From an uncultured cyanobacterium (GTDB lineage: Bacteria > Cyanobacteriota > Cyanobacteriia > PCC-9006 > JAAUQQ01), in NCBI GenBank assembly GCA_963718615.1, contig OY970368.1, forward strand, positions 960,001-1,024,000: a stretch of DNA of 64,000 bases, in the 5' to 3' direction. Every line of letters starts with the position of its first letter. The first letter of the stretch is position 1. Made by a program: the position numbers and the translations under genes. This document shows, in pieces, positions 45,861-57,205 of this stretch. Below the pieces are notes generated by a model. That model was not told the DNA's origin. It did no database searches and saw only the letters and a program-made list of their open reading frames with translations.

Positions 45861-46030
45861 TCTATCTTGTTGCTCGATTGAACTGCTTTAGGTTTTGAAT
45901 AAATCAAATACGAAGATGGCTCTGATAGCTCAGTTCGGCTGACAATCAAAACTGAGTATCAGGTGGTTGGGGCTGGCTTAAATTCGCTCAAACATTACTT
46001 TAGAGTTGTTTTTCACTTTCTCTATTGATC

Positions 46031-46059
46031 CCGTCCGACTCAGGACCTATGTTAGGTGT
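46031..46059 (-). other. attC left arm (R''/L'') of cassette C; right arm degenerate
   Basis: Minus strand ACACCTAAC-ataggt-cctgagtcggac, 38 nt after the stop; complementary to GTTAGGTGT at 47860-47868. Confidence 0.65.
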
Positions 46060-46096
46060 TTTCTTATGCATCCAGCTTGTTATAAAGACAATGCTA

Positions 46097-47779
46097 CTAT
46101 ACGGGGCTTAATTGCTTGCTAATTTTGTACATCTCATCATGATTTAGCTTTAAGAGAGGCATACGAATTAAACTCCCATTTAGAGAGATGCTTCCTTGTT
46201 CCCACTCTACTACTGATCTGTTGTAGATATCTATTAAAAGTCTATCTGTAACCGTCTTAACGTCTGCAAGATTCAAGTTTTCGGAGGATAGGATTCTATG
46301 TACGACTCCGTTAAGCAATTGAAGATTAAGCACAGTAATATCTTTTTTTAGCTTCCAAACTGAATGAGTGCCAAGACCAGCACGGCACAATAGTACACTT
46401 ACACATTGAACGTTCTCGACTCTTATTTCAAATATTTCCGATATTACAGAATCACGCTCATCTTGAGGTAAATCTTGAAAACGGTTAAGTTGCTCTATTC
46501 CCTCTTTTGAACGATTTTCAACAGCTTTTGTCATTCTTGCACCTTGTGGTGGAATAGCTGCTTTCGCTTGAATATGTACCACTGTATTAGCGCTTGATTG
46601 ATAGATGAGTAAATCAAATTCTCCCTTGCTCCAATTTTTATTAGAGACGATCCTTAAACCTGGTAGTCTTTCCCATATTTCTAAAGCTTGCTTTAAAAGT
46701 GTGGGTTCAAGATGCTGTGAAACAATATTGTTGAATTGAGTCGTATTGCATCTGTTAAGAACATAGAAAATGTTTCTTGTTGCCAACATTGATCGAAGAA
46801 TATATGGGCTAAATAAATAAGAATGCGAATAATCTATTAAAGGTGGGAAAAAACCTTCACCAGAATTTTCAAAATTCTGATTGACAACATCAATAGTGAA
46901 GAAATTTAATATATTTTCAATTGCAGAACTTTTAACGTTTGTTAAAGCCATTAATAACCTTATAAAAAAGCTTTTAGCATTAAAAACTGCAACCCATTCG
47001 TAAAATTCGTGAAATAGAGTTTCCTTTCTTGTTTCACTGCTTTCATTAAGCCAAAGAAATTCTAAAGCATTTGCAAGACCAATACTGTAGTCTGCATATG
47101 CGAATAGTGCAGCCCTGATCTTACAAAACTCTTCCCATGTTGTCCCAATAGATATTTGGAAAGCGTTTGGCTCTAAAATTGGTATTTCCTTAAAACTATT
47201 TAAACGATATTGAAATAGATCGGCTAATACTCTACACATCAAAGCCATATTAATATTAGGAAGTTGATCCGCTAGTTCAATAAATTCTTGCTTTAAATTA
47301 GGAGCTTCACCAACTAAGAACGTTAAGCTAAGTTCAGTTAAAAGAACATCGTACTCTTCAGCTCTTGAAAATTCTTCATTGGGATGTATAAGCTCAAACC
47401 CTTCCTCGATTTTTCTGACCTCATAGTAACCGCGCCGTACTTCAGGCATAAGTTCGCAAAAATGGGCATAGGATACTAGCTCTCGAAAATCTTTGACGAA
47501 CAGTGCAGTAGCTGAAAAAGCATCGATTGCGCTAACTCCTATTTGTGAAGTGCATTTTCTCAGCAAAGGGATTAAGTAAGAAAGTCTACTACTTAATGCT
47601 TCACCTTCTGCTTGATTCTTAGATATGTTGTGACCAAAGCGCTCACCCTGAATCAGAATGTCGATTACCACAAATAAGCTTGTTAAAACACTCCTAAGCG
47701 GTAACTGAAACATATCAGACTGAACAATTTTGTTGTCAATTTCACCTTCGAAAGAAAAAAGATCATCTCGATCGCTCAT
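46097..47779 (-). CDS. AT-rich cassette protein with a putative C-terminal PD-(D/E)XK nuclease
   Basis: 560 aa; GEFDLLIY...VHIQAK motif. Confidence 0.55.
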   Translation of the reverse strand: MSDRDDLFSFEGEIDNKIVQSDMFQLPLRSVLTSLFVVIDILIQGERFGHNISKNQAEGEALSSRLSYLIPLLRKCTSQIGVSAIDAFSATALFVKDFRELVSYAHFCELMPEVRRGYYEVRKIEEGFELIHPNEEFSRAEEYDVLLTELSLTFLVGEAPNLKQEFIELADQLPNINMALMCRVLADLFQYRLNSFKEIPILEPNAFQISIGTTWEEFCKIRAALFAYADYSIGLANALEFLWLNESSETRKETLFHEFYEWVAVFNAKSFFIRLLMALTNVKSSAIENILNFFTIDVVNQNFENSGEGFFPPLIDYSHSYLFSPYILRSMLATRNIFYVLNRCNTTQFNNIVSQHLEPTLLKQALEIWERLPGLRIVSNKNWSKGEFDLLIYQSSANTVVHIQAKAAIPPQGARMTKAVENRSKEGIEQLNRFQDLPQDERDSVISEIFEIRVENVQCVSVLLCRAGLGTHSVWKLKKDITVLNLQLLNGVVHRILSSENLNLADVKTVTDRLLIDIYNRSVVEWEQGSISLNGSLIRMPLLKLNHDEMYKISKQLSPV

Positions 47780-47937
47780 TACTCTTACCCGCTAAATATA
47801 TAGGCTAACCTAGTCTAATATAAAGGGAGCCACCAGAGGCTTGTTACAGTTCACAACTGACACCTAACGACCTCGTTAGACTGATTGGCAAGATAGCTGG
47901 CCCTTAATTTGTTCAACGCATCCTGGTAAATCATGGG

Positions 47938-48341
47938 GGTAGTGCCTTTAGCTGGGGGATGAGTATGGTGTGGCCATTAGAGAAAGAAAAAGCAAACTGG
48001 GTAAGACCCTTCTGTGCCAATTGCAATGACTCAAGAGCTGCTTCATTGTCCTAACTGTCTATCTGAAGATATCAGCCGTAACGGCTTCAACGATCGCGGT
48101 ACTCAAAGCTATAAATGTCGAGATTGCCGTCGCCGGTTTGTCCTGACTCCGAAATCCCTTCCCTTGAGCGATCTGCGGCAAAGGGTGTCGCGCTTGGTGC
48201 GAAAGGCGCTCTCGTTTTCAAAGAAACAAGAGAACCACGAGGCTGCGATCTGGAATTTCGTTCACCATTACAACCAGCCATTGCGCCTTAAGCAGGCACA
48301 TGCCGCTTCATTCTCTCCAGCACCCACATAATTGGACTACC
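47938..48341 (+). mobile_element. Internally deleted IS1-family element
   Basis: Ends ggtagt.../...actacc; InsA Zn finger (CPNC...YKCRDC) fused to the InsB tail (LRQRVSRLVRKALSFSK...HYN). Confidence 0.8.
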
Positions 48342-48727
48342 CTAAATTGTATGGGCCAATTCCTGAGTTAGATGGGTGGTTGAGGCGACGAATTCGGATG
48401 TGTTATTGGAAACAATGGCGCAGACCGAGGACTCGCATCAGTAACCTGTTGAAGTTGGGGACACCGAAGCAGCACGCTTTTTCTACTGGCTTGAGCCGGA
48501 AGGGATATTGGCGGTTGTCGCGGACGTTGGCCACGCAGACGGGTATGACAAATGAGTGGTTGGCACAACAGGGATTGCTTTCGATTCGTGACCTATGGAT
48601 GAAAGTCCAGGGCTACGAAGAGAAGCCTGTCAGTTTGTCTAGCAGTTAGGTTGAGAACCGCCCATTGCGGAGCCGCACGATGGGTGGTGTGGGAGGGGGG
48701 ATTCGTGAGGATTCTCCCTATCCCGAT
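48342..48727 (+). mobile_element. 3' remnant of a group IIC intron (maturase tail + DV/DVI)
   Basis: LDGWLRRRIRMCYWKQW maturase; DV gaaccgcc...gtggtgtgggagg; ends ctatcccgat. Confidence 0.9.
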
Positions 48728-48846
48728 TGGGCTGCTGGCAAGACACTCAAGTTAGCGGCAATGCCATAAACTCTGCTTTTCTAGTCGCAATGTTCTGGTG
48801 TTGTTTGTCAACACAAAAATGGAATCGTACTCTGCCGAAATTCCTC

Positions 48847-50427
48847 CTATAACCTGCACGCTTCTAAGCGAGAGAAAAGACTTGGCACTCCTCTAACCCA
48901 ACCTCCCGGTCGGGGTAAATGTCCTAACGGAGCCGATGAATCAAAGATCAAATCATAATACGGTATCCAAATACTTTTTAATCGCCATCCGACGCGGTCG
49001 CCAAACTTTTCATAAGTACTATCATCATAATTGTCATCAAGCTTGCCACCACATTCTAGATAAATTTGCTTCTGAATACTGAAACCAAATTTACCGCTAC
49101 TGTATTTCACCCACAATTCATCAAGGGTGCGGAGATCTAAACAGGGGAACTGTCTTATTTCTTCCTCCCTAACCCAGTCGCTTTCTCTCCGACCAATAAG
49201 CTTGAGTATGATCTTATAAGTTTCATAATCAGCTTCTTTCCATCTCCCAGCCTTTAACAAATCTCGGAGTAAAGTATAGTCCAAACCCCGCTCAGAACTA
49301 AGGTTATCGTGGGATGCTTCAACAGTCAAAGATGAATGTTGGGTGGAAGCAGACTGCTCAGCAACTACCTGTGCTTCAATTGCTGCAATATCTTCATCTC
49401 GTAAACCTAAATATTGCCGATAGTCTTTCAGATCCCTTAGAGATCCTTCACTTATAGGATTCTCCACCTGCATTACCTCAAGCAATGCCTCTTTATATTC
49501 TTGCAGTTTGCGTCGGTACTCTCGATGAGGTTGTAAAACCTCAACCTCAATTGCATGTGCCTCCGCTTCCGACAAGCCAAGTTGTTGTTTCAATACGTGC
49601 AAGACTCTACGAGCTACAGAGGATAATTCATCACGACTGGCAAAACGTTGTAATTCTTTGCGATATCTTAGTTTTGAATTGTCTACAGGTACTTTGGCTA
49701 GCAGAATCTTGTAACCTTCCGCAGCAGTGTAAAACATAGGAGTCATTGCTGGAGCAGCCGCTCTCACTTTGGCTTGAACGTACTCATGTAATTCATCAAC
49801 AGCAATAAAACCATCACTATCTAAATCGGCTGCTCCCGTTGCAATCCCCTCAACTAAATAACGGGTATAAAGTGACAGGTCAGATTCCTCCTGCCAAAAA
49901 GCATACTGGGTAGAGCTAGAGGAGGTTAGAATAGCACGTCCAACACCACCTAACTGTGCCCGGATATCGATATGGTCGTCGTCTCTGACAGGTAAAATCT
50001 TTACATCTCGACCAAATGTTCCACTAAAATCGCAATCTAAAATGACTACCTGTCTACGAGAACGACCATTACTCATCATCTCTTGAATGAATCTAGCTGA
50101 AACAGCAGTAGATTTTGCGAATCTATCCTTATCCTTTCGAGTGTTCCGAGTAGCTAAATAAATCTCTTCATTGTCGTCTTTAATTCCATGACCAGAGTAA
50201 TAGAATAATACCAAATCATTATTCTGGCTCTTAGAAAATAAATCATCTATGGCTTCTTCCATCTCTTGTCTACTTGGATTAGCTAGTAGAGAAGCCTGGT
50301 CAAATCCACCTACTTCGGGGTCTCGTAAAACGCGAGCCATTGCCTCGGCATCTACTCCTGCGCTTGGGAGTGGATTTAACCCCAGTTCATACTCACTCAC
50401 CCCTATCAATAGTGCAATTTTAGCCAT
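48847..50427 (-). CDS. Caspase (peptidase C14)-GUN4 fusion protein
   Basis: ALLIGVSEY, FYYSGHG, LDCDFSG; GUN4 DYTLLRDLLKAGRWKEAD...GKFGFSIQK. Confidence 0.88.
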   Translation of the reverse strand: MAKIALLIGVSEYELGLNPLPSAGVDAEAMARVLRDPEVGGFDQASLLANPSRQEMEEAIDDLFSKSQNNDLVLFYYSGHGIKDDNEEIYLATRNTRKDKDRFAKSTAVSARFIQEMMSNGRSRRQVVILDCDFSGTFGRDVKILPVRDDDHIDIRAQLGGVGRAILTSSSSTQYAFWQEESDLSLYTRYLVEGIATGAADLDSDGFIAVDELHEYVQAKVRAAAPAMTPMFYTAAEGYKILLAKVPVDNSKLRYRKELQRFASRDELSSVARRVLHVLKQQLGLSEAEAHAIEVEVLQPHREYRRKLQEYKEALLEVMQVENPISEGSLRDLKDYRQYLGLRDEDIAAIEAQVVAEQSASTQHSSLTVEASHDNLSSERGLDYTLLRDLLKAGRWKEADYETYKIILKLIGRRESDWVREEEIRQFPCLDLRTLDELWVKYSSGKFGFSIQKQIYLECGGKLDDNYDDSTYEKFGDRVGWRLKSIWIPYYDLIFDSSAPLGHLPRPGGWVRGVPSLFSRLEACRL

Positions 50428-52333
50428 TGTCTATCTCATGAGTAACAAATGCTAGTAAACTGTGAATCTCATCATTATCAGACTCTATATCTAATGCCTT
50501 TCTGAGTTGCTCCTTTGCTAGTTCAAACTCTTTTTGCAGTCTCAAATCTCGACCGTACCCTAACAGTGCTTGAATATAGTTTTCTTTAGTTCGTACTGAA
50601 TCAATCTGAAATCCCCTTGCATAAAGTGCTGACGCTTTACCAAAATCCTCAATCTCTAAGCACGCTGCTGCCATATTAAGTAGAGCACTAAAATGATTGG
50701 GGTTTAAATCTAGTACCTGACTGTATAGATCAAGCGTAGTTGTCATCTCACCCTTCTGATGCAACTCCATTGCTCCTTGATAAATACGATTAGCCTCTGG
50801 CTCCAACTTCTCCAACTCTCTTATTTCCTGGCGGAGTGGATAACGTTTGATTAACCAACGGCGGACAAGTTCAATTTTTACTTTATATGCGGGTGCTTTG
50901 GAATCTTTTATAAAATCTAGGAAATTCCATTCAACCAGTCGTTTTTCAGCATCAACTAATGGTTTAGTCCGAACAACTCCATATCCCTCCAACAACTCTA
51001 GTGGTAGAACTAATTTAGATTCTACTCTGGGTAGCCCAAGTGTTAGAACCTGTCCCACACGAACGTGCTGTAATTCTGTACTGACTACAACTGCCCCTAG
51101 TCTTGGATCATAGGAAGCGATCCAGGCTGTAGAGGGTAACTCACGCATCAGATAGCTATATAACCAGGTTGGAGCACGACCCGTAATGACTATTCCAATG
51201 TTCGTATCAATCTCTTCAGGTAGCTCTAGATTTACGAGATCCTGCGGCTCGATAACCCCACTTTCAGAGAGAAGTTCTATGGTTAACCACTGATATCTTA
51301 AACCTTCATAATCTTGCTGTTCACTTAATTGAAAGCGAACTGAGGCATTAGATGTTTGACTAATGTTACTTTGAATATCTAAATCACTGACTTCTTTGTT
51401 GGCTTTCTTTTGAGCTTCTGCTACAGCCGAAAAGACAACCCGTTCAGGAATGGGCAACCCATCTCGAAACCATGCTAAACCCGCTTCACCAATCTCAATT
51501 GCTCTATCTACAATTCTTTCTACATTTTCACAAATAATTTTCCAGCTTTGTTGCTCTCGTGCGTATCCAAAAAGCGTAAAACATATTAATTGTGTAAAGT
51601 AAGGATGTCCTGCTGAGAGGTTAAGAATTGCTTGTATAGCTGCTGAATCGTACTCTAATATTTCTTTAGCAGGTTCAACAATTAAACGCTTCGCACTCGT
51701 TTCATCAAGCAAACCAATCTCTTGACTAGGCGCTTCTTTGAATAAACTGAGTAACTTTGGCATGTCATCCAGTCGTCGTCCCACAACCGGAATGAGAAAA
51801 AGTTGTTTCTGTCGATGAATGATTGACTGTAAGTAGGGAAAAAAGTGTTCAACTGCTGTCTCTGGGTTATAGCTACTTAAGACATCAAACTCATCCATTA
51901 ACAAGACTAAGTTTCTGCCTCGCAATGCTTCATAAACTTGAGACAGAAAAATGCGAGAGAAAGCACTTGAATCTTCTTTCAGTTCCGTTGCTGAAGGTAA
52001 TGTTATCTCTTCTAATGGCAGTTCAAGTTGATCGACAATTTCCATAGCAAGATAGTGCAACACATCACTAAGAGGTGTTTTGCTTCTATCTTGAAGATCA
52101 AAGAGTACAAAAGAAAACTCGTTCAATCCGACACACCTTGGAATTTGAGAGAGTACAGAAGATTTGCCAATACGCCGTTGACCATGCAGCAAAATAACTT
52201 TTGCACCTGACTTCAGATTATCCTTAACGAATTGAAATAAATTTTCTCGCCCAAAAAACAGATCTGGCTTGTCGATCGGACTGCCAATGTCATAAGGATT
52301 TCTCCGAGATTGTGGAGACATCATAATCATCAA
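50420..52333 (-). CDS. STAND-like ATPase with inserted Csx3/Crn3-like domain and C-terminal TPRs
   Basis: NPY...FFGRE, GQRRIGKSS, LLMDEFD, GHPY; GIVITGRAPTWLY...YDPRLGAVVV; TPR helices. Confidence 0.8.
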   Translation of the reverse strand: MMIMMSPQSRRNPYDIGSPIDKPDLFFGRENLFQFVKDNLKSGAKVILLHGQRRIGKSSVLSQIPRCVGLNEFSFVLFDLQDRSKTPLSDVLHYLAMEIVDQLELPLEEITLPSATELKEDSSAFSRIFLSQVYEALRGRNLVLLMDEFDVLSSYNPETAVEHFFPYLQSIIHRQKQLFLIPVVGRRLDDMPKLLSLFKEAPSQEIGLLDETSAKRLIVEPAKEILEYDSAAIQAILNLSAGHPYFTQLICFTLFGYAREQQSWKIICENVERIVDRAIEIGEAGLAWFRDGLPIPERVVFSAVAEAQKKANKEVSDLDIQSNISQTSNASVRFQLSEQQDYEGLRYQWLTIELLSESGVIEPQDLVNLELPEEIDTNIGIVITGRAPTWLYSYLMRELPSTAWIASYDPRLGAVVVSTELQHVRVGQVLTLGLPRVESKLVLPLELLEGYGVVRTKPLVDAEKRLVEWNFLDFIKDSKAPAYKVKIELVRRWLIKRYPLRQEIRELEKLEPEANRIYQGAMELHQKGEMTTTLDLYSQVLDLNPNHFSALLNMAAACLEIEDFGKASALYARGFQIDSVRTKENYIQALLGYGRDLRLQKEFELAKEQLRKALDIESDNDEIHSLLAFVTHEIDNG

Positions 52334-52408
52334 TCCTGAGCCATGAGATCGAAGAGAAGACAGTAAAACAACTATAAGTAGAACACGTACTCTATACTCA
52401 ACAAGCAG

Positions 52409-53707
52409 CTAACCTGACACAAACCCTTTGGGAATGGCACTAACTAGCTTGCTAACCCATTCAATAACAGAGGGCACTTCGTCCTTATGCTGCCACAAAT
52501 ATCGAATCCCAGTTTTAACTTGCTCTGCTTGCTTGCTGCTCATTAGGTTGAGAAAAACCTTTTGGCGTTGTTGAAGTTCCTCCTCGTTGCTATTCTCGAT
52601 TTCTTTAATTACCCACCACTCCATCATTGACGAGGCAAATGCATAATTTGGTCTGCCCTGTTGCATAGTTCGGATAATTACTCCCCGTTGTTCCAAATCT
52701 GTCAATTCACGCTCTCGTTGACTAAAGACGATGCTGATGTCGCCCAAGTCATAATTCTTACGCTGTAAACGACCTTTTAGATTAGATAGAGCAATCAACA
52801 TTAGAAGTGTCTGTTCCTCCTGATTTGACATTTCCCAGGTTTGTTGGAAAAATTGTTCAGTTGCACTCAGGAAGTCTCGCGTGAATGCTTCAGGATCGGG
52901 CATCTGCCCAGTATGGAGTTTGTCATATAAAAGATAACCAGCATGTTGAATCAGTGCTGGATGTCCATCAGTAATTTCTCGAATCCCCTCCCGCAGTGCC
53001 GTTGTCATTGGCATACAACCTAATAAAGTATCAATTTCACTATCAGTAAATGGTTTGAGAGGTTGAAATAGGTAGTGATTATACCACGGAGACTTATCTG
53101 GCGAGAGCTTGGGTCCAAGTTCGTTGAGCCGACGAAATGAAGTCACGATCATTGAGAGACAACCTTTACTCTGAACTGCCAGGTTACGAGTCTCGCTCAG
53201 GAATATCTCTATGCTGCTCTCCTTATACTGATCATGCGGACGGAAAGCAGCATCATAGTTATCTAGCAGCAGCAGTAGAAACTTATTTTGTTTTCCTATT
53301 TGCTTCAAGAACTGACGTAAGTCATCCTTTGTTGCTTCAGCCTTCCTAAGGGATTGGTCGATCCCAGTTTGTAAAAGGTCATCATCAACAAGTTCGTCCT
53401 TGATCAAGCTTAGGATCTCTCGCCAGAAGGTAGCTGGTAGAAAGGGCATTATGCCCAAGCAGTCCAGGTAGATAATGATAGATTCAGAATGTTCACATCC
53501 ATAGTGTTGCCAAACTTGAGGAGAAATCAGCAGTTCCAAAAAAGATGACTTACCCATCCCCGCTCCACCCCAGATGGCTAAACTGCTACGACTAGCGATT
53601 CGATCAAAAGCAATACCAATTTCAGATGCCCATCCGACAAAGCTTTCTGAAGAAACTAACTTTCCAGGAGAAAAGGGATTTTTTGACATGGCATTCGCTG
53701 AGTCCAA
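52409..53707 (-). CDS. STAND-like P-loop NTPase
   Basis: NPF, GGAGMGKSS, LLLLDNYD, GHPALIQ. Confidence 0.8.
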   Translation of the reverse strand: MDSANAMSKNPFSPGKLVSSESFVGWASEIGIAFDRIASRSSLAIWGGAGMGKSSFLELLISPQVWQHYGCEHSESIIIYLDCLGIMPFLPATFWREILSLIKDELVDDDLLQTGIDQSLRKAEATKDDLRQFLKQIGKQNKFLLLLLDNYDAAFRPHDQYKESSIEIFLSETRNLAVQSKGCLSMIVTSFRRLNELGPKLSPDKSPWYNHYLFQPLKPFTDSEIDTLLGCMPMTTALREGIREITDGHPALIQHAGYLLYDKLHTGQMPDPEAFTRDFLSATEQFFQQTWEMSNQEEQTLLMLIALSNLKGRLQRKNYDLGDISIVFSQRERELTDLEQRGVIIRTMQQGRPNYAFASSMMEWWVIKEIENSNEEELQQRQKVFLNLMSSKQAEQVKTGIRYLWQHKDEVPSVIEWVSKLVSAIPKGFVSG

Positions 53708-53900
53708 AGGTCTTGATTAGGAGTTTTCCTTTGACTAGCTTAGCCCCACTGATACTTTTTGAGTACTACTCCTACAAATAACGAGAAGCAGCCCAACGTC
53801 GTAGCTGAGCCGCACCCGTCAATCTGCCAATACTGGCGACAACGTCGTCAGGACGGCTCGCTGAGATGTGAATGCTGTCGTGTCGGCTCCAGCGCAGTGT

Positions 53901-54370
53901 GTACGCCCAGCATGGGCGTGAGCTAATGGGGTGAAAGTCCCCTGTGGGAGAACCAGCCATCCAAATGCTCGTATTAATTGGAGCCGAGAGATGGACAACC
54001 ACTAGCCTAAGGCAAGGGCGTCTTCGCGAGAAGGGGTCGGTCGGAAACCAGACTTTTGGATTGCGTCTGCTTTCGGGTAAGTCGCTTTTCTAGGCTCTGT
54101 TTCACCGTGGGAACTCCCTATTAGCGCCAGTGTCACTTGCAATGAGTTTCTGATTGCGCCCAGCTCCTAGCTTCGATCTCCCGAATTCCGAGTCGGGTCA
54201 TCGTGGGCAGATCAGGAGTCACATCCGAGTTTGATGGAAGGGACTTTCACCCTCATCAAGAGGACAGTTCAGCTCTTGAGAGTGCTTCATGTTTGGAAGC
54301 CAAGCTGGCAGAGTTATTTATGGGCTTGCACCGTTATTCATCTGCAACGAATCGCACCCCCTATCCCGAT
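53901..54370 (+). mobile_element. Internally deleted group IIC intron
   Basis: 5' gtacgcccagcatgggcgtg...gggtgaaagtccc; 3' ctatcccgat. Confidence 0.85.
54040..54357 (-). mobile_element. 5' fragment of a second (IIB-like) group II intron nested antisense
   Basis: Minus strand starts GTGCGATTCGTT and contains gggtgaaagtccc. Confidence 0.7.
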
Positions 54371-54406
54371 TAGGTGTTGCTTAGATGTCACTTATCTAAG
54401 AACACT

Positions 54407-55234
54407 TTAAACATTTGCTTGCTGTAAAAGCTTTAAAATAGAAGTTGAACGGGTCATATAGGAAAGCCCAGTATGATGAAACATTGGTGGCACAGATGTT
54501 TCATCCCAAAAATGACCAGACATGATTCCCGCAAGCAATGCAGGTCGCCAAGTCGGATCGTCTATATCCCCGCCAGGACGAAATCCTCTCGCTGGCAAAA
54601 AGACCGGGCTACCACTTGATCCAGAAAAAGACAATCCTGATACAAGAATTATATCGTCTGTCTTTATTTGGTCGTTAGTGAATGATATCTGTGGCAGAGA
54701 AGCTACTGTACATTGACGGGCTACAGGAAGTTTCCATTTTTCATCCCACCAGTGCCGGCCATTCTTCCCTGGAAAACCGATAAAGAAGGATGTTTCCATC
54801 GGTCCAATAATTAGACTATTGGCAAAGTTTTTCTCATCAATAAGGTTTTCAAACTTAAGAATTTCTCTATTTGGATCGAATGGGGTTTCTTCATGGAATA
54901 CAGGTTCAACAAGAATAGAGCAGTCAGAAGATGGGGAAGAGAATAAACAACTTTCTATATTTGCCACATCAAAGAAATCTGTATTCTCTGCAGGCTGGTT
55001 TGATTCATAATATCGTAACTCTATAGAAATCCTATCGAGCTTTAATCCTGGCTTGTCGGGGAATCTTATAGATGGATCAACATTATGTTTGTTGGTGACA
55101 AAAATATTCTTTCCAGTCTGGGAAATCATCCAAAATCCAGTACCACAACCAGATTTTTCGTTTCCTATATCATCCGTAAAATTTACTTTGATGCGGTGGA
55201 TCATCCAAAAAATCTTTGGGTTAAGACCAAGCAT
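54407..55234 (-). CDS. Trypsin-like serine protease (cassette A)
   Basis: GTGF, VTNKH, SDCSIL, SGSSGSPVF catalytic triad motifs. Confidence 0.85.
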   Translation of the reverse strand: MLGLNPKIFWMIHRIKVNFTDDIGNEKSGCGTGFWMISQTGKNIFVTNKHNVDPSIRFPDKPGLKLDRISIELRYYESNQPAENTDFFDVANIESCLFSSPSSDCSILVEPVFHEETPFDPNREILKFENLIDEKNFANSLIIGPMETSFFIGFPGKNGRHWWDEKWKLPVARQCTVASLPQISFTNDQIKTDDIILVSGLSFSGSSGSPVFLPARGFRPGGDIDDPTWRPALLAGIMSGHFWDETSVPPMFHHTGLSYMTRSTSILKLLQQANV

Positions 55235-55298
55235 ATGGCTGTTCTCAAACTTATTTATCTAAAAAACTAGGTTAGATCTAATACTTGTTGAACTGACT

Positions 55299-55545
55299 AC
55301 ACCTAACAATTTATTCTCATGCACGATGCCTGATAACTCCCTCCTCTCGCTATTCTCAAGTATCAGCGCCGTATAATCCCCAGCCATGACCTATTACCCA
55401 TGCAATTATGCTGGATAACATCCCTGGTTAGGTATTATCAGGCAACGCCGCATGATAACAACCCATTTCCAGGCATTATCCCCGCACAGCCGCCGGATAA
55501 CATCCCTGAGCAGGTATTATCAGGCATGTCTCAGTATAATCATCC
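55299..55545 (-). other. attI-like site with about 41-bp periodic repeats
   Basis: Minus strand ...gaataaatt-GTTAGGT; repeats GGATAACATCCCTG...GGTATTATCAGGCA at 55413 and 55495. Confidence 0.55.
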
Positions 55546-55717
55546 CCTTTGAGTCAGCGTAGAAAATTACAAAATCTTCACCCCCGAGTCAGGGAATCCA
55601 AAGGCTTCAGCCTCGCTTTCCATGCAAACCCAGCCGCCCCAGACACTGTCCCAAAACTGACTCTAGCCAGGGATGCTTCTGTGACATTACACCCATGACG
55701 ACTCCCCGATTCATTGG

Positions 55718-57205
55718 CTACGCCCCCAAAACCGCCTCACCCTGCCGATACAGCTCCCGCGCATAATCCGTCCATTGTCCCTGGCCCCAGTAGCGAAAAC
55801 AGCTAGTTTCTAACAACAGCACATACAAAAGCGCCGCTTGATAATCCGAACGCTGCGTCATCGCAGGATCAGCCGCCACGAGGGCGTCGTATTTTTGATG
55901 AAACTGAATGCTCAAGCGCTGCATCGGTTCAAGGACGTTTTCATAACCCTGGACCCAGCTCAGATCATTCGTCCAGGATGCCCCGTCGAGGTGAAATTGG
56001 GGGTCTGTGTCGCGCAGGTGCTGGATGGCGATCGCCACCCCCTCCGGCGTCACAGAGTCTGTCCCCAGGTGCTGCCAAATCCTATGCTGATGCACCGCCT
56101 GACAGACAGGATAATCCTCAGGCTTAGCGCCTAGGGCTTCAATCAACTCCAAATATTCCGTCCCATTCATCGCCACCGTTCCCGCAGCATTGCCCCCCCC
56201 ATCCCGAATTTCGTGATACACCCGGAAGAGATCACGGGGATACTCGTTCATCATCACACCGCCGTTTTCACCATCCGCAATCTGAGACACCAGCGACGGA
56301 ACTTCAACCTCGCCTAACCGCTGACGGCCCCAGCCCTTGGCTTCAAAATAGGGCTGCATCTGAGCCACTAGCTTGGTGTCCGATCCCTGGGTTTTAATTA
56401 ACGCCGTGATGCTGATACTTTCTCCTTGAGCGTTGCGAGCCACTAAACGGTTGGGCAAATACTTGTCAGATTGATGCAAGCCCGAGCCATCTAGCCGCTC
56501 AACGGAATGCTCTTGCACCAACAACCAGCGATAGCCACAGTCCTTCAGGGCTTTGATATATTCATACAAAACATCGGGATGATTGGGCAAATGCATCTCC
56601 GGCGGCGAAAAGCCCTTGACCCGAGCCAGGGCTGCGGTGCCAAAGGTTGCCGCAAACTGGTGCTGCCAAGCCTGAATATGAAGCTTCAGATCCGGCACTG
56701 GCGTTGAAGGAACAACCGCATGGCTCCACATCGTCCCCAACCATTCCACCTGGAGCTGATAGCGCTGATCGCAGGCAATTCGCCGCAGCTTGTCGAGAAT
56801 GTCTTGCCGCTGCATCTGTTCCAACGCCCAAAGCAAATTGCCCGAATAGTCGAGCATAATGCGGGGATTACAGCCCTGGTCAATCAGTGCGGGGATAAAG
56901 TCCCCCATGCGTCCATAGCAATCTGCAAAGACCCCGGCGTTGTGATTGTCGCCATCGTGGGGATGCTCGAACATGTGTTGCAAATTGGAAATCAACGCAC
57001 CTTCAGGACCCGCCGGAATCGTCGGCTGATGCATATGCAGCGCGCAAGCGAAGCCAGACTGGAGGCGATCGCCCTCTAAATTCGTCCTCCCCAGAAACAC
57101 TGGCTCCGTTCCCTGAACCCAATCCCGCAACTCCGCCTCTCGGCCCGCAATGGGGGGCAAGGATTGACACAGGGCCGGCAACTGAGATGTAGTTTCAGCA
57201 ATCAT
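55718..57205 (-). CDS. Glycoside hydrolase family 57 protein
   Basis: ALHMHQP, FSPPEMHLP, IADGENGG, ETSCFRYWG. Confidence 0.88.
   Translation of the reverse strand: MIAETTSQLPALCQSLPPIAGREAELRDWVQGTEPVFLGRTNLEGDRLQSGFACALHMHQPTIPAGPEGALISNLQHMFEHPHDGDNHNAGVFADCYGRMGDFIPALIDQGCNPRIMLDYSGNLLWALEQMQRQDILDKLRRIACDQRYQLQVEWLGTMWSHAVVPSTPVPDLKLHIQAWQHQFAATFGTAALARVKGFSPPEMHLPNHPDVLYEYIKALKDCGYRWLLVQEHSVERLDGSGLHQSDKYLPNRLVARNAQGESISITALIKTQGSDTKLVAQMQPYFEAKGWGRQRLGEVEVPSLVSQIADGENGGVMMNEYPRDLFRVYHEIRDGGGNAAGTVAMNGTEYLELIEALGAKPEDYPVCQAVHQHRIWQHLGTDSVTPEGVAIAIQHLRDTDPQFHLDGASWTNDLSWVQGYENVLEPMQRLSIQFHQKYDALVAADPAMTQRSDYQAALLYVLLLETSCFRYWGQGQWTDYARELYRQGEAVLGA

What the first reader, a model, noticed from the sequence alone, without database searches (positions are those of the whole stretch)
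51038..51340. Degenerate CRISPR ring-nuclease (Csx3/Crn3) domain inserted inside a STAND ATPase, away from any CRISPR locus
Seen: residues about 332-432 read GVIEPQDL...LP...GIVITGRAPTWLYSYLMRELPSTAWIASYDPRLGAVVVSTE...VGQVL and split the post-ATPase helical region (VFSAVAEAQ ... PLELLEGYGV ... YKVKIELVRRWL). Established: Csx3/Crn3 carries GRxPxWLY...H..H...YDPRLGAVVVxxH and degrades cA4 using His/Asp residues. Here YDPR is kept, but the histidines appear replaced (MRELPS, STE). Inference: a non-catalytic cyclic-oligoadenylate-binding module repurposed as an allosteric sensor, possibly linking type III CRISPR/CBASS second messengers to an NLR-like switch.
Basis: partly seen in the sequence, partly recalled or inferred. 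Interest (0 to 1): 0.85.

Follow-up and report, generated by a model that had tools for sequence, protein, structure and literature searches.

The report
Dead Csx3 sensor inside STAND ATPase
A cyanobacterial NLR-like ATPase carries, inside its winged-helix domain, a complete copy of the CRISPR ring-nuclease fold Csx3 that keeps the face that binds cyclic tetra-adenylate but has lost the catalytic histidines, so it may connect the type III CRISPR alarm signal to a different kind of immune switch.

Summary
The ORF at 50420-52333 (-) encodes 637 aa: nSTAND1 P-loop NTPase, winged helix, TPR. A 126-residue segment (318-443) is inserted between the first and second helices of the winged helix. This segment is a complete Csx3 fold: Pfam E 9e-26, AfCsx3 by sequence E 2e-13, Foldseek TM 0.75-0.84. 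The residues of the cA4-binding "D69 face" are kept (T/G/R, W, D, R). The catalytic H57/H60/H80 are R/P/E, and no His occupies these positions in any of the five known members.

The insert is under purifying selection (dN/dS 0.21) and is predicted to form the canonical dimer. It lies in a three-gene cassette conserved in one other genome: small STAND, Csx3-STAND, caspase-GUN4. The caspase lacks its catalytic Cys. The cassette sits on a low-GC island.

The genome has two distant type III-B loci with intact GGDD cyclases and a Csx1, but no CD-NTase match (Pfam SMODS model).

The most likely function is a non-cleaving cA4 sensor gating a STAND switch. Ligand binding is untested. Csx3-ATPase fusions and this idea are already published, so this is a new, rare architecture of a known kind.

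The parts
52409..53707 (-). Upstream partner gene: small STAND-type P-loop NTPase (432 aa) with no repeat or sensor domain
   Evidence: Pfam AAA_22, AAA_16, NACHT and nSTAND1 all match below their cut-offs. The orthologue in L020 is 84% identical and occupies the same position. Homologues occur in 24 of 301 genomes of the class. In 12 of 12 loci fetched, an nSTAND1-TPR gene follows directly.
50420..52333 (-). Csx3-STAND-TPR gene (637 aa from TTG; 634 aa in the database copy P0003)
   Evidence: The full-length AlphaFold model has pLDDT 89 and pTM 0.79.
51452..52267 (-). nSTAND1 / AAA+ NTPase module (about residues 23-294). Walker A is GQRRIGKS (51-58); Walker B is LLMDEFD (D147 E148).
   Evidence: Pfam nSTAND1 scores 31.1 bits against a cut-off of 27.1. 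G51, K57, D147 and E148 are invariant in 93 homologues. Foldseek matches ORC/Cdc6 and the archaeal Walker ATPase 2qen.
51383..51451 (-). First helix of the winged-helix domain (residues 295-317, ...ERVVFSAVAEAQ...)
   Evidence: Secondary structure of the model; alignment A1.
51005..51382 (-). Inserted segment (residues 318-443), absent from nSTAND1-TPR homologues
   Evidence: Alignment A1: 5 sequences carry it and 6 do not. The N- and C-terminal parts are contiguous in 12 of 12 related loci. The first residues of the insert (318-323) have pLDDT below 50, and the 10-residue blocks at both of its ends average about 60.
51035..51337 (-). Csx3 fold proper (residues 333-433). The cA4-face residues T384, G385, R386, W390, D409 and R411 are kept. 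The catalytic positions are R397 (H57), P400 (H60) and E420 (H80).
   Evidence: dN/dS against the L020 orthologue is 0.20.
50837..51004 (-). Rest of the winged-helix domain (residues 444-499: two helices, a two-stranded wing, and the helix YKVKIELVRRWL)
   Evidence: conserved in all homologues.
50423..50836 (-). C-terminal TPR array (residues 500-637)
   Evidence: Pfam TPR_11, TPR_19 and TPR_12 match over their cut-offs. The model is all-helical here with pLDDT above 90.
48847..50427 (-). Downstream gene overlapping by 8 nt: caspase-fold (residues 3-232) - coiled linker - GUN4 (378-506), 526 aa. The His of the dyad is kept (H80). The catalytic Cys position is Asp (D133, motif LDCDFSG).
   Evidence: Pfam Peptidase_C14 E 1.1e-20 and GUN4 E 5.7e-40. 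NCBIfam 'caspase, EACC1-associated type' scores 162 bits against a cut-off of 140. All 8 paralogues in the same genome that cover the site have DCC. The profile aligns the second C with the C of metacaspase DSCHSG. The L020 orthologue is 61% identical and reads DCSF.
48014..48649 (+). Mobile-element debris at the edge of the island: an IS1 InsA/transposase fragment and a group II intron maturase fragment
   Evidence: Pfam Zn_ribbon_InsA E 1.3e-8, DDE_Tnp_IS1 9.5e-5, GIIM 2.6e-5. GC is 0.37-0.47 across 46-56 kb, against 0.45-0.60 in the other 2-kb windows (0.52 and 0.57 in the two adjoining ones).

Best explanation
The inserted domain is a non-cleaving, sensor-type Csx3 module. It was captured once from a lineage of already degenerate cyanobacterial Csx3 domains and placed between helix 1 and helix 2 of the winged-helix domain of an nSTAND1-TPR NTPase.

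Proposed mechanism:
1. Two protomers pair through the canonical Csx3 dimer helix and build one cyclic tetra-adenylate (cA4) site on the conserved 'D69 face'.
2. cA4 is made in trans by the genome's type III-B Cmr complexes.
3. Because the Mn/His face is gone, the bound cA4 is held rather than cut.
4. The insert sits in the domain that, in STAND proteins, moves when the switch opens. Ligand binding would therefore gate ATP-dependent oligomerisation of the STAND, probably together with the partner small STAND. It may also glue Csx3 dimers head to tail, as cA4 does with the inactive H60A AfCsx3.
5. The output would go through the co-translated caspase-fold-GUN4 protein, acting as an adaptor rather than as a protease.

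What is shown: domain identity, insertion site, loss of the catalytic histidines, retention of the binding-face residues, purifying selection, conservation of the cassette, and the presence of cyclase-competent type III systems.

What is inferred: cA4 binding, dimer-dependent gating, and the output.
For: - Identity and fold.
- Insertion site.
- Catalytic positions: 80 of 184 Csx3 domains examined carry H57/H60/H80, and so does the family consensus. The five STAND inserts carry RPE, RPE, RPQ, QPR and QPR. PMC7371418 (passages) reports H60A as inactive and H80A as strongly reduced.
- Binding face: G45 and D69 are invariant in 5 of 5. R46 is kept in 4 of 5. R71 is R in 4 and K in 1.
- Selection: dN/dS of the insert is 0.21, against 0.18 for the NTPase and 0.15 for the TPR, in the one pair window vs L020.
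- Dimer: the homodimer model scores ipSAE 0.84 with a best control of 0.00. That mark was reached by 20 of 30 solved pairs and 1 of 23 single chains. Contacts agree at 97% or more and pLDDT is 85 or more. The interface is helix 388-398 plus strands 405-418. Csx3 dimers are solved, so this may reflect memory of those structures.
- cOA pathway in the genome: two Cmr2 proteins with YAGGDDF, CRISPR arrays of about 50 and about 32 repeats, a Csx1 CARF-HEPN (E 6e-135) and a CARF-WYL protein. This is the only Csx3 domain in the genome.
- Second genome: the other genome with the cassette also has a GGDD Cmr2 on another contig and no other Csx3 domain.
- Origin: in the domain tree the five inserts form one clade with the degenerate N-terminal Csx3 of a Csx3-P-loop-Csx3 protein (support 0.98). 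That clade is nested among mostly non-HHH domains of multidomain proteins.
- Recurring association: Csx3 recurs with caspase-fold domains. P0124 is Peptidase_C14 plus two Csx3 domains, and P0006 carries a C-terminal CHAT domain.
- Filament precedent: cA4 polymerises H60A AfCsx3 (PMC7371418, passages). After AfCsx3, the next structural neighbours of the insert model are two cA4-bound Cat1 filament entries, 9mud and 9mue.
Against: - No binding data exist.
- R46 is Pro in the closest relative P0004, and R71 is Lys in P0006.
- The cassette is about 1.17 Mb or more from the CRISPR loci, on a horizontally acquired island. Co-occurrence with type III in 2 of 2 genomes is weak evidence, since type III systems are common in cyanobacteria.
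- The parental two-gene pair works without any Csx3 in 12 of 12 other loci. In the two loci whose flanking ORFs were scanned it lies beside trpS and metF. The pair is therefore not obviously a defence system.
- The associated caspase lacks its catalytic Cys, so no executing activity has been identified.
- AfCsx3 needs the H60 face of a second dimer to sandwich cA4, and the one direct contact from that face (H80) is lost here.
Confidence: 0.5

Rival explanations
1. Integrated decoy or bait. The dead Csx3 copy mimics the host ring nuclease or cOA-binding proteins, so that a phage counter-defence protein that targets such proteins trips the STAND. This would work in the manner of integrated domains in paired plant NLRs (recalled, not from a call). 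It also resembles the 'inactive versions of enzymes as decoys' proposed by Kaur et al. 2020.
For: - Two STAND genes lie in tandem and only one carries the extra domain.
- The enzyme-derived domains in the cassette are catalytically dead: Csx3 and the caspase.
- Kaur et al. (PMC7159879, passages) describe inactive domains captured by such systems and suggest a decoy role.
- The genome has no stand-alone Csx3.
Against: - No phage protein that binds Csx3 came up in my reading; I ran no search for one.
- Retention of exactly the cA4-contacting residues is not required for a protein bait.
- The genome lacks the active Csx3 that a decoy would be expected to mimic.
Confidence: 0.15
2. Ligand-independent dimerisation or scaffolding module. 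The Csx3 fold was kept only for its stable dimer interface, which makes the STAND a constitutive dimer.
For: - A confident canonical homodimer model.
- The interface helix (WLYSYL) is invariant in 5 of 5.
- R46 and R71 are not strictly conserved.
Against: - D69, G45 and the YDP(R/K) motif are kept in all five although they are not part of the interface core.
- The whole insert is under purifying selection, not only the interface helix.
Confidence: 0.15
3. RNA-binding module. The domain binds a short A-rich RNA or a linear oligoadenylate, as AfCsx3 does in the 3WZI crystal, and so senses RNA rather than a cyclic messenger.
For: - AfCsx3 binds an RNA tetranucleotide on the same face (3wzi title; PMC7371418 passages).
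- Kaur et al. classed the domain as an RNase.
Against: PMC7371418 (passages) reports RNA binding about 100-fold weaker than cA4 binding. Both ligands use the same residues, so the sequence cannot distinguish them.
Confidence: 0.1
4. Still an active ring nuclease using substitute residues, making the protein a self-limiting or cA4-clearing STAND.
For: - D69 and R71, both needed for catalysis in AfCsx3, are kept.
- E420 could in principle bind a metal ion.
Against: - H60A alone abolishes activity in AfCsx3 (PMC7371418).
- Here H57, H60 and H80 are all replaced.
- H60 is Pro in 5 of 5 members, and the H80 position varies among E, Q and R.
Confidence: 0.05

Closest known systems
Crn3/Csx3 ring nuclease (A. 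fulgidus AF_1864; PDB 3WZI, 6YUD, 6VJG)
   Same: Same fold (TMt 0.75-0.84). Same dimer helix. The same cA4-face motifs, G-R-x-P-x-W and Y-D-P-R-L-G-A-V-V-V.
   Different: It is a domain inside a 637-aa ATPase, not a stand-alone protein of about 110 aa. H57/H60/H80 are replaced by R/P/E. It is not next to a type III locus.
Csx3-AAA (Shah et al. 2018 cluster 35; called Csx3' in PMC7371418) and AAA-Csx3 (cluster 67)
   Same: Csx3 joined to a P-loop NTPase. They occur mainly in cyanobacteria. cOA-dependent allosteric control of the ATPase was already proposed (PMC6546367). Function was still unknown in 2025 (PMC12409355, passage).
   Different: Those are terminal fusions to a different, small P-loop domain (GPPDSGKS type; seen in P0123, P0124 and P0207) and are encoded beside type III cas genes. 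Here the ATPase is an nSTAND1 STAND, the Csx3 is an internal insertion in the winged helix, and the gene is far from cas genes. The PADLOC Csx3-AAA and AAA-Csx3 models match only across the Csx3 part.
cOA-activated filament-forming effectors (SAVED-CHAT, Cat1 and similar)
   Same: A cyclic oligoadenylate sensor whose ligand glues subunits into higher-order assemblies that switch on an effector. After AfCsx3, the next structural neighbours of the insert model are two Cat1 entries, 9mud and 9mue (E 3.5e-5 and 4.0e-4). There is also a caspase-fold partner, as in SAVED-CHAT (10.1101/2023.06.23.546230, passages).
   Different: No STAND NTPase takes part in those systems. Their sensors are CARF or SAVED domains. 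Their proteases are catalytically active, whereas here the caspase lacks its Cys.
Antiviral STAND / NLR-like NTPases and the nSTAND1-TPR family of cyanobacteria
   Same: The same NTPase-winged helix-TPR chassis, 55-65% identical over the N-terminal half to hundreds of cyanobacterial proteins. It is paired with a caspase-fold protein of the 'EACC1-associated' type.
   Different: It carries an integrated nucleotide-messenger sensor inside the winged helix. No EACC1 gene was found among ORFs of 40 aa or more in 53600-55800, or of 80 aa or more in 46000-56000. The caspase is predicted to be inactive.
Csx3 in the 'effector position' of the conflict systems of Kaur et al. 2020 (example WP_006514987.1, Leptolyngbya sp. 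PCC 7375)
   Same: A Csx3 domain recruited into an NTP-dependent conflict system of a filamentous cyanobacterium, away from CRISPR.
   Different: That paper describes it among effector domains of vWA-MoxR ternary systems and reads it as an RNase. I could not see its Figure 3B or its source data. It is not described there as an insertion in a STAND.

Membership tests
Csx3 domain family (Pfam PF09620 / TIGR02579) | Profile match above the curated cut-off | tested here: met
   PF09620 scores 90 bits against a cut-off of 21. TIGR02579 scores 84.3 against 55.4.
Csx3 domain family (Pfam PF09620 / TIGR02579) | Csx3 three-dimensional fold | tested here: met
   AF2 model of the insert: pLDDT 90. All of the first ten Foldseek ranks in the PDB are AfCsx3 chains, TMt 0.75-0.84.
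Csx3 domain family (Pfam PF09620 / TIGR02579) | Homodimer through the W-L-Y helix | tested here: inconclusive
   The model supports it: ipSAE 0.84 against controls of 0.00. However, similar complexes have been solved, so the pass may come from memory of those structures.
Crn3 ring nuclease (enzyme) | Conserved His triad H57/H60/H80 (Mn site, 'H60 face') | tested here: not met
   R397/P400/E420 in the window. No His at these positions in any of the 5 members.
Crn3 ring nuclease (enzyme) | cA4-contacting residues of the D69 face (S44, G45, R46, D69, R71) | tested here: met
   T384, G385, R386, D409 and R411. In relatives, R46 is P in P0004 and R71 is K in P0006.
Crn3 ring nuclease (enzyme) | Binds and cleaves cA4 with Mn2+ | not testable with these tools
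   Biochemical assay needed.
Crn3 ring nuclease (enzyme) | Encoded beside type III cas genes or csx1 | tested here: not met
   No CRISPR-like array in the window, and none of the ORFs I scanned around the finding is a cas gene. The Cmr loci are at about 2.18 and 5.23 Mb, against about 1.01 Mb for this gene.
STAND NTPase, nSTAND1 (PF20703) | Profile match, intact Walker A and B, winged helix after the NTPase, C-terminal repeats | tested here: met
   nSTAND1 scores 31.1 bits against a cut-off of 27.1, and TPR models match over their cut-offs. GKS and DE motifs are invariant in 93 homologues. The winged helix and TPR are present in the model.
Csx3-AAA / AAA-Csx3 accessory families (PADLOC PDLC01045, PDLC01059) | Match over the ATPase part of the family model as well as the Csx3 part | tested here: not met
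   PDLC01045 matches only profile positions 20-103 of 286. PDLC01059 matches only 277-379 of 382. In both cases that is the Csx3 part.
Caspase / orthocaspase (Peptidase_C14), for the neighbouring gene | His-Cys catalytic dyad | tested here: not met
   His is kept (SGHG). The Cys position is Asp (LDCDFSG), whereas all 8 paralogues covering the site have DCC. The profile aligns that second C with the C of DSCHSG in solved metacaspases. That this Cys is the nucleophile is recalled, not taken from a call.
CBASS-linked sensor | A CD-NTase in the genome | tested here: not met
   PF18144 (SMODS): no match in the complete 6.1-Mb genome, while the control rang in 3 of 14 genomes.

The most novel reading that the evidence does not exclude
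A cA4-gated, paired-STAND immune switch.

The integrated, non-cleaving Csx3 domains would polymerise head to tail on cA4 produced by type III-B CRISPR complexes elsewhere in the genome. This would nucleate assembly of the sensor STAND with its helper STAND and a pseudo-caspase-GUN4 adaptor. In effect it would be a bacterial counterpart of sensor/helper NLR pairs with an integrated domain.

It would couple an adaptive-immunity second messenger to an innate NLR-like machine, and possibly to tetrapyrrole or photosynthesis control through GUN4.
Probability: 0.15. Interest if true: 0.85.

Novelty: new variant of a known kind. Interest (0 to 1): 0.6.

Why it matters
Csx3-ATPase fusions have been listed since 2018, but a 2025 survey still calls the ATPase 'of unknown function' (PMC12409355, passage).

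This protein gives a clean, testable case. The ATPase is a well-understood kind of switch (a STAND). The insertion point lies in the domain that moves on activation. The sensor has lost cleavage residues but kept binding residues. Insert-free relatives are available as natural controls.

If cA4 gates it, type III CRISPR signalling would reach NLR-like machines encoded far from cas genes. Surveys limited to about 6 kb around Cas10 would then miss part of the effector repertoire.

The finding also points to a whole clade of degenerate, probably sensor-type Csx3 domains: tandem Csx3, caspase-Csx3-Csx3, and Csx3-P-loop-TPR-WD40.

Tried and rejected
- A mixed alignment of STAND homologues and short Csx3 proteins (A3) misplaced the short proteins: their conserved W aligned with W288. 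I dropped it. The full-length fold used A4, which contains STAND homologues only.
- phmmer of the caspase domain against the PDB found nothing. A profile built from ten paralogues did find matches.
- SAVED (PF18145) and Cas_APE2256 (PF09651) gave no match in the genome, but the control genomes were silent too, so these blanks say nothing.
- Rfam (gathering thresholds) and ARAGORN found nothing around the island. I therefore have no tRNA integration site and no explanation for the 700-nt gap at 53708-54406.
- No EACC1-like small ORF was seen next to the 'EACC1-associated type' caspase. No EACC1 profile was run.
- Plasmid search with the insert found only two canonical crn3 genes.
- Sequencing runs: no RNA holder is listed. 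There are 4 DNA rows from one study with shares of 0.22 or less, and I did not lay them. This gives no evidence on expression.
- Literature searches for a STAND-inserted Csx3 were made. None of the papers listed describes it.
- Makarova et al. 2020 (NAR) and Brown et al. 2020 (JBC) are not held. Supplements are closed. The source data of Kaur et al. 2020 and the tables of Shah et al. 2018 could therefore already list this architecture.
- I considered and rejected the idea that the insert is a decaying remnant. dN/dS is 0.21 and the fold is complete.
- I considered and rejected the idea that it is a member of the Csx3-AAA family.
Full report
**What is there**

The finding lies in ORF 50420-52333 on the minus strand, which encodes 637 aa from a TTG start.

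Pfam finds Cas_csx3 at residues 358-430 (E 9.2e-26, 90 bits, cut-off 21). It also finds nSTAND1 (31.1 bits, cut-off 27.1) and several TPR families over their cut-offs, plus AAA_16/AAA_35/AAA_22 just under theirs. The 101-aa stretch alone scores E 3.2e-27. NCBIfam's Crn3/Csx3 equivalog scores 84.3 bits against a cut-off of 55.4. Five PADLOC Csx3-type models match at E 1.6e-27 to 7.7e-19, and a sixth, AAA-Csx3, at 9.6e-5. By sequence, the only solved relatives are the A. fulgidus Csx3 entries, at E about 2e-13.

An AlphaFold model of residues 320-445, built on 51 Csx3 sequences, has pLDDT 90. All of its first ten Foldseek ranks in the PDB are AfCsx3 chains (TMt 0.75-0.84). The next hits are two entries of the cA4-bound Cat1 filament.

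**Catalytic versus binding residues**

The 6YUD chain is the H60A variant. This fixes the numbering in the alignment.

- Catalytic face: AfCsx3 H52, H57, H60, H61 and H80 correspond to Y392, R397, P400, S401 and E420.
- Binding face: S44, G45, R46, P48, W50, D69 and R71 correspond to T384, G385, R386, P388, W390, D409 and R411.

Athukoralage et al. 2020 (PMC7371418, passages read) report the following:
- cA4 is held mostly by the "D69 face": main chain of I22, S44, G45 and I49, and side chains of S44, R46 and R71.
- H57, H60 and H80 are absolutely conserved.
- H60A and D69A are inactive.
- cA4 turns the H60A protein into head-to-tail fibres.

I built an HMM from 55 short Csx3 proteins and aligned 184 Csx3 domains from 153 proteins: the window protein, P0004-P0007, and 148 of the 150 best hits (the other two are P0004 and P0006). 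Of these domains, 80 have H/H/H at the three positions. The five STAND-embedded domains have RPE, RPE, RPQ, QPR and QPR.

The binding-face quartet G45/R46/D69/R71 is GRDR in the window, GPDR in P0004 and GRDK in P0006. Loss of the catalytic face is thus old and consistent. The binding face is mostly, but not perfectly, kept.

**It is an insertion**

A search of 5.8 billion proteins gave 998 hits at E <= 1e-5 among 8000 scored candidates. Of the 120 listed, 5 carry PF09620:
- the window's own protein;
- P0004 (78% identical);
- P0005 (58%);
- P0006 (49%, 830 aa);
- P0007 (48%, 843 aa).

Nearly all the others cover only about the N-terminal half of the query, mostly at 51-65% identity. They end in TPR, WD40, kinase or solute-binding domains.

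In alignment A1, the five share a block of about 130 residues that six insert-free homologues lack. The block lies between ERVVFSAVAEAQ and PLxLLxxxGVV.

The full-length model (93 sequences, pLDDT 89, pTM 0.79) has this layout:
- helix 295-317;
- the insert at 318-443, whose first residues (318-323) have pLDDT below 50 and whose terminal 10-residue blocks average about 60;
- helices 444-450 and 457-468;
- a two-stranded wing at 472-485;
- helix 488-497;
- TPR helices up to 636.

The insert therefore sits between helix 1 and helix 2 of the winged-helix domain. The NTPase part resembles ORC/Cdc6 and the archaeal ATPase 2qen. The Walker A and B residues are invariant in the 93-sequence alignment.

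**The insert is functional and arose once**

Against the orthologue in L020, dN/dS is 0.21 for the insert and 0.20 for the Csx3 core. The NTPase gives 0.18 and the TPR 0.15. This rests on one pair of sequences.

I built a FastTree of the 169 domains, out of 184, that have at least 70 aligned positions. The five inserts form one clade with the degenerate N-terminal Csx3 of P0123, a Csx3-P-loop-Csx3 protein (support 0.98). That clade sits inside a 51-tip group (support 0.71) made mostly of non-HHH domains from tandem-Csx3 and multidomain proteins. The insert was therefore probably taken from an already non-catalytic Csx3 lineage.

Two copies of the insert are predicted to form the canonical dimer. 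The ipSAE is 0.84 with a best control of 0.00. That mark was reached by 20 of 30 solved pairs and 1 of 23 single chains. Contacts agree at 97% or more and pLDDT is 85 or more. Csx3 dimers have been solved, so this pass shows likeness to them and no more.

**Context in the window**

The gene is the middle one of three on the same strand:
- a 432-aa small STAND at 52409-53707, separated from it by a 75-nt gap;
- the Csx3-STAND itself;
- a 526-aa caspase-GUN4 protein at 48847-50427, overlapping by 8 nt.

GC falls to 0.37-0.47 between 46 and 56 kb, against 0.45-0.60 in the other windows and 0.52 and 0.57 in the two adjoining ones. IS1 and group II intron fragments lie just downstream.

The same three genes, with the same 8-nt overlap, occur in a Leptolyngbyaceae MAG (L020). 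Identities are 84%, 78% and 61%. The flanks are different and include a transposase.

In the window's own genome:
- the small STAND has no paralogue;
- the nSTAND1 module has only one remote relative (28% identity);
- the caspase-GUN4 has two paralogues of about 49% identity.

**The parental pair**

Homologues of the small STAND occur in 24 of 301 sampled genomes of the class, counting the window's own. I fetched 12 of the 23 other loci, choosing high-scoring ones with room on both sides.

- In 12 of 12, an nSTAND1-TPR gene follows directly, and its N- and C-terminal parts are contiguous. There is no insert.
- In 0 of 12 is there a caspase or GUN4 match within the stretch fetched.
- In the two loci whose flanking ORFs I scanned, the pair lies beside trpS and metF.

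The chassis is thus an old, widely kept two-STAND pair of unknown role. The Csx3 insert and the caspase-GUN4 gene are additions in a rare, mobile branch.

**The caspase looks dead**

Its His is present (YYSGHG), but the motif reads LDCDFSG. All 8 paralogues in the genome that cover the site read DCC, and the L020 orthologue reads DCSF.

A profile of these ten sequences aligns the second C with the C of DSCHSG in solved metacaspases 7QP0 and 6W8S. That this Cys is the nucleophile is recalled, not taken from a call.

Related proteins show the same theme:
- P0006 matches CHAT exactly at the cut-off (24 bits) and P0007 falls below it. By eye, both lack the Cys.
- P0124 is Peptidase_C14 + Csx3 + Csx3 + P-loop. 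Its His position is Tyr.

Kaur et al. 2020 (PMC7159879, passages) note that about 70% of caspase domains in the effector position of their systems are inactive.

**Is there a messenger to sense?**

The complete 6.1-Mb genome has exactly one Csx3 domain. It has two type III-B loci at about 2.18 and 5.23 Mb. These contain Cmr2 (YAGGDDF intact, no HD region), Cmr3, Cmr4 and Cmr6, with arrays of about 50 and about 32 repeats. There is a Csx1 CARF-HEPN (PADLOC E 6e-135), a CARF-WYL protein and a membrane accessory protein.

No CD-NTase was found, and the control genomes rang. The L020 genome also has a GGDD Cmr2 on another contig, and its only Csx3 domain is the STAND one.

Among 61 related genomes, 21 have Csx3 matches. 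Every other one lies in an open frame of 106-454 aa. Only the window's lies in a 662-aa frame.

**Interpretation**

The best reading is a non-cleaving cA4 sensor that gates a STAND switch. The domain keeps what AfCsx3 uses to hold cA4 and loses what it uses to cut it. It is under selection. It sits in the moving part of the switch. The cell makes cOA.

How the signal is passed on is inferred. There are two possibilities: dimer-dependent gating, or cA4-glued head-to-tail stacking as seen for H60A AfCsx3.

The rivals are an integrated decoy, a pure dimerisation module, an RNA binder, and a residual nuclease. I cannot exclude them without biochemistry.

**Novelty**

Shah et al. 2018 (PMC6546367, passages) described Csx3-AAA and AAA-Csx3 next to type III genes and proposed cOA control of the ATPase. 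A 2025 survey still calls that ATPase's function unknown (PMC12409355, passage). Kaur et al. 2020 mention one Csx3 among the effector domains of vWA-MoxR systems and read it as an RNase.

I found no paper describing a Csx3 inserted in a STAND winged helix. Two key papers and all supplements were not available to me. I therefore rate this a new, rare variant of a known kind.

Noticed in passing
window 46097-47779 (-): A 560-aa ORF in the lowest-GC part of the island (0.37), with no match in Pfam, NCBIfam or PADLOC. By eye, its C-terminal third contains a D...(E/Q)xK-like stretch (EFDLLIY...HIQAK) reminiscent of restriction-endonuclease-fold nucleases. This was not tested.
   Followed up: partly
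window 54407-55234 (-): A 275-aa trypsin-like peptidase (PADLOC candidate PDC-S45, E 1.1e-15; Pfam Trypsin_2 only 17.6 bits). It lies upstream of the cassette after a 700-nt gap with no long ORF, no Rfam match and no tRNA.
   Followed up: partly
window 55393-55526: Two copies of a 52-nt direct repeat, 82 nt apart and 77% identical, at the high-coordinate edge of the low-GC island.
   Followed up: no
G000:C1 about 2.174-2.194 Mb (L006) and 5.222-5.242 Mb (L007): Two type III-B CRISPR-Cas loci with short (564 and 537 aa), HD-less Cmr2 proteins carrying GGDD, and arrays of about 50 and about 32 repeats. L007 also has Csx1 (CARF-HEPN), a CARF-WYL protein and Cas1. L006 has a 2-TM accessory protein (C3a55 / Mem_02).
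   Followed up: partly
P0124 (547 aa), P0123 (447 aa), P0207 (906 aa): Other unusual Csx3 architectures.
- P0124: caspase fold (His position is Tyr) + two Csx3 domains + a GPPDSGKS P-loop.
- P0123: degenerate Csx3 + P-loop + canonical HHH Csx3.
- P0207: degenerate Csx3 + P-loop + TPR + WD40.
In addition, 31 of the 153 proteins examined carry two Csx3 domains, mostly without the His triad, which suggests single-chain pseudo-dimers.
   Followed up: partly
L038-L049 (twelve cyanobacterial genomes): A conserved gene pair, a small STAND (about 430 aa) followed by an nSTAND1-TPR gene (about 550-1070 aa). In the two loci scanned it lies next to trpS and metF, and ORFs of matching size sit there in three more. 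No effector gene is evident. Its function is unknown. In G016, G042, G064, G126 and G254 the small STAND carries an in-frame stop.
   Followed up: partly
G000:C1 about 5.050-5.052 Mb and 5.885-5.887 Mb: Two caspase-GUN4 paralogues (about 49% identical to the cassette's protein) that keep the DCC motif. They are possible active partners of the Cys-less copy.
   Followed up: no
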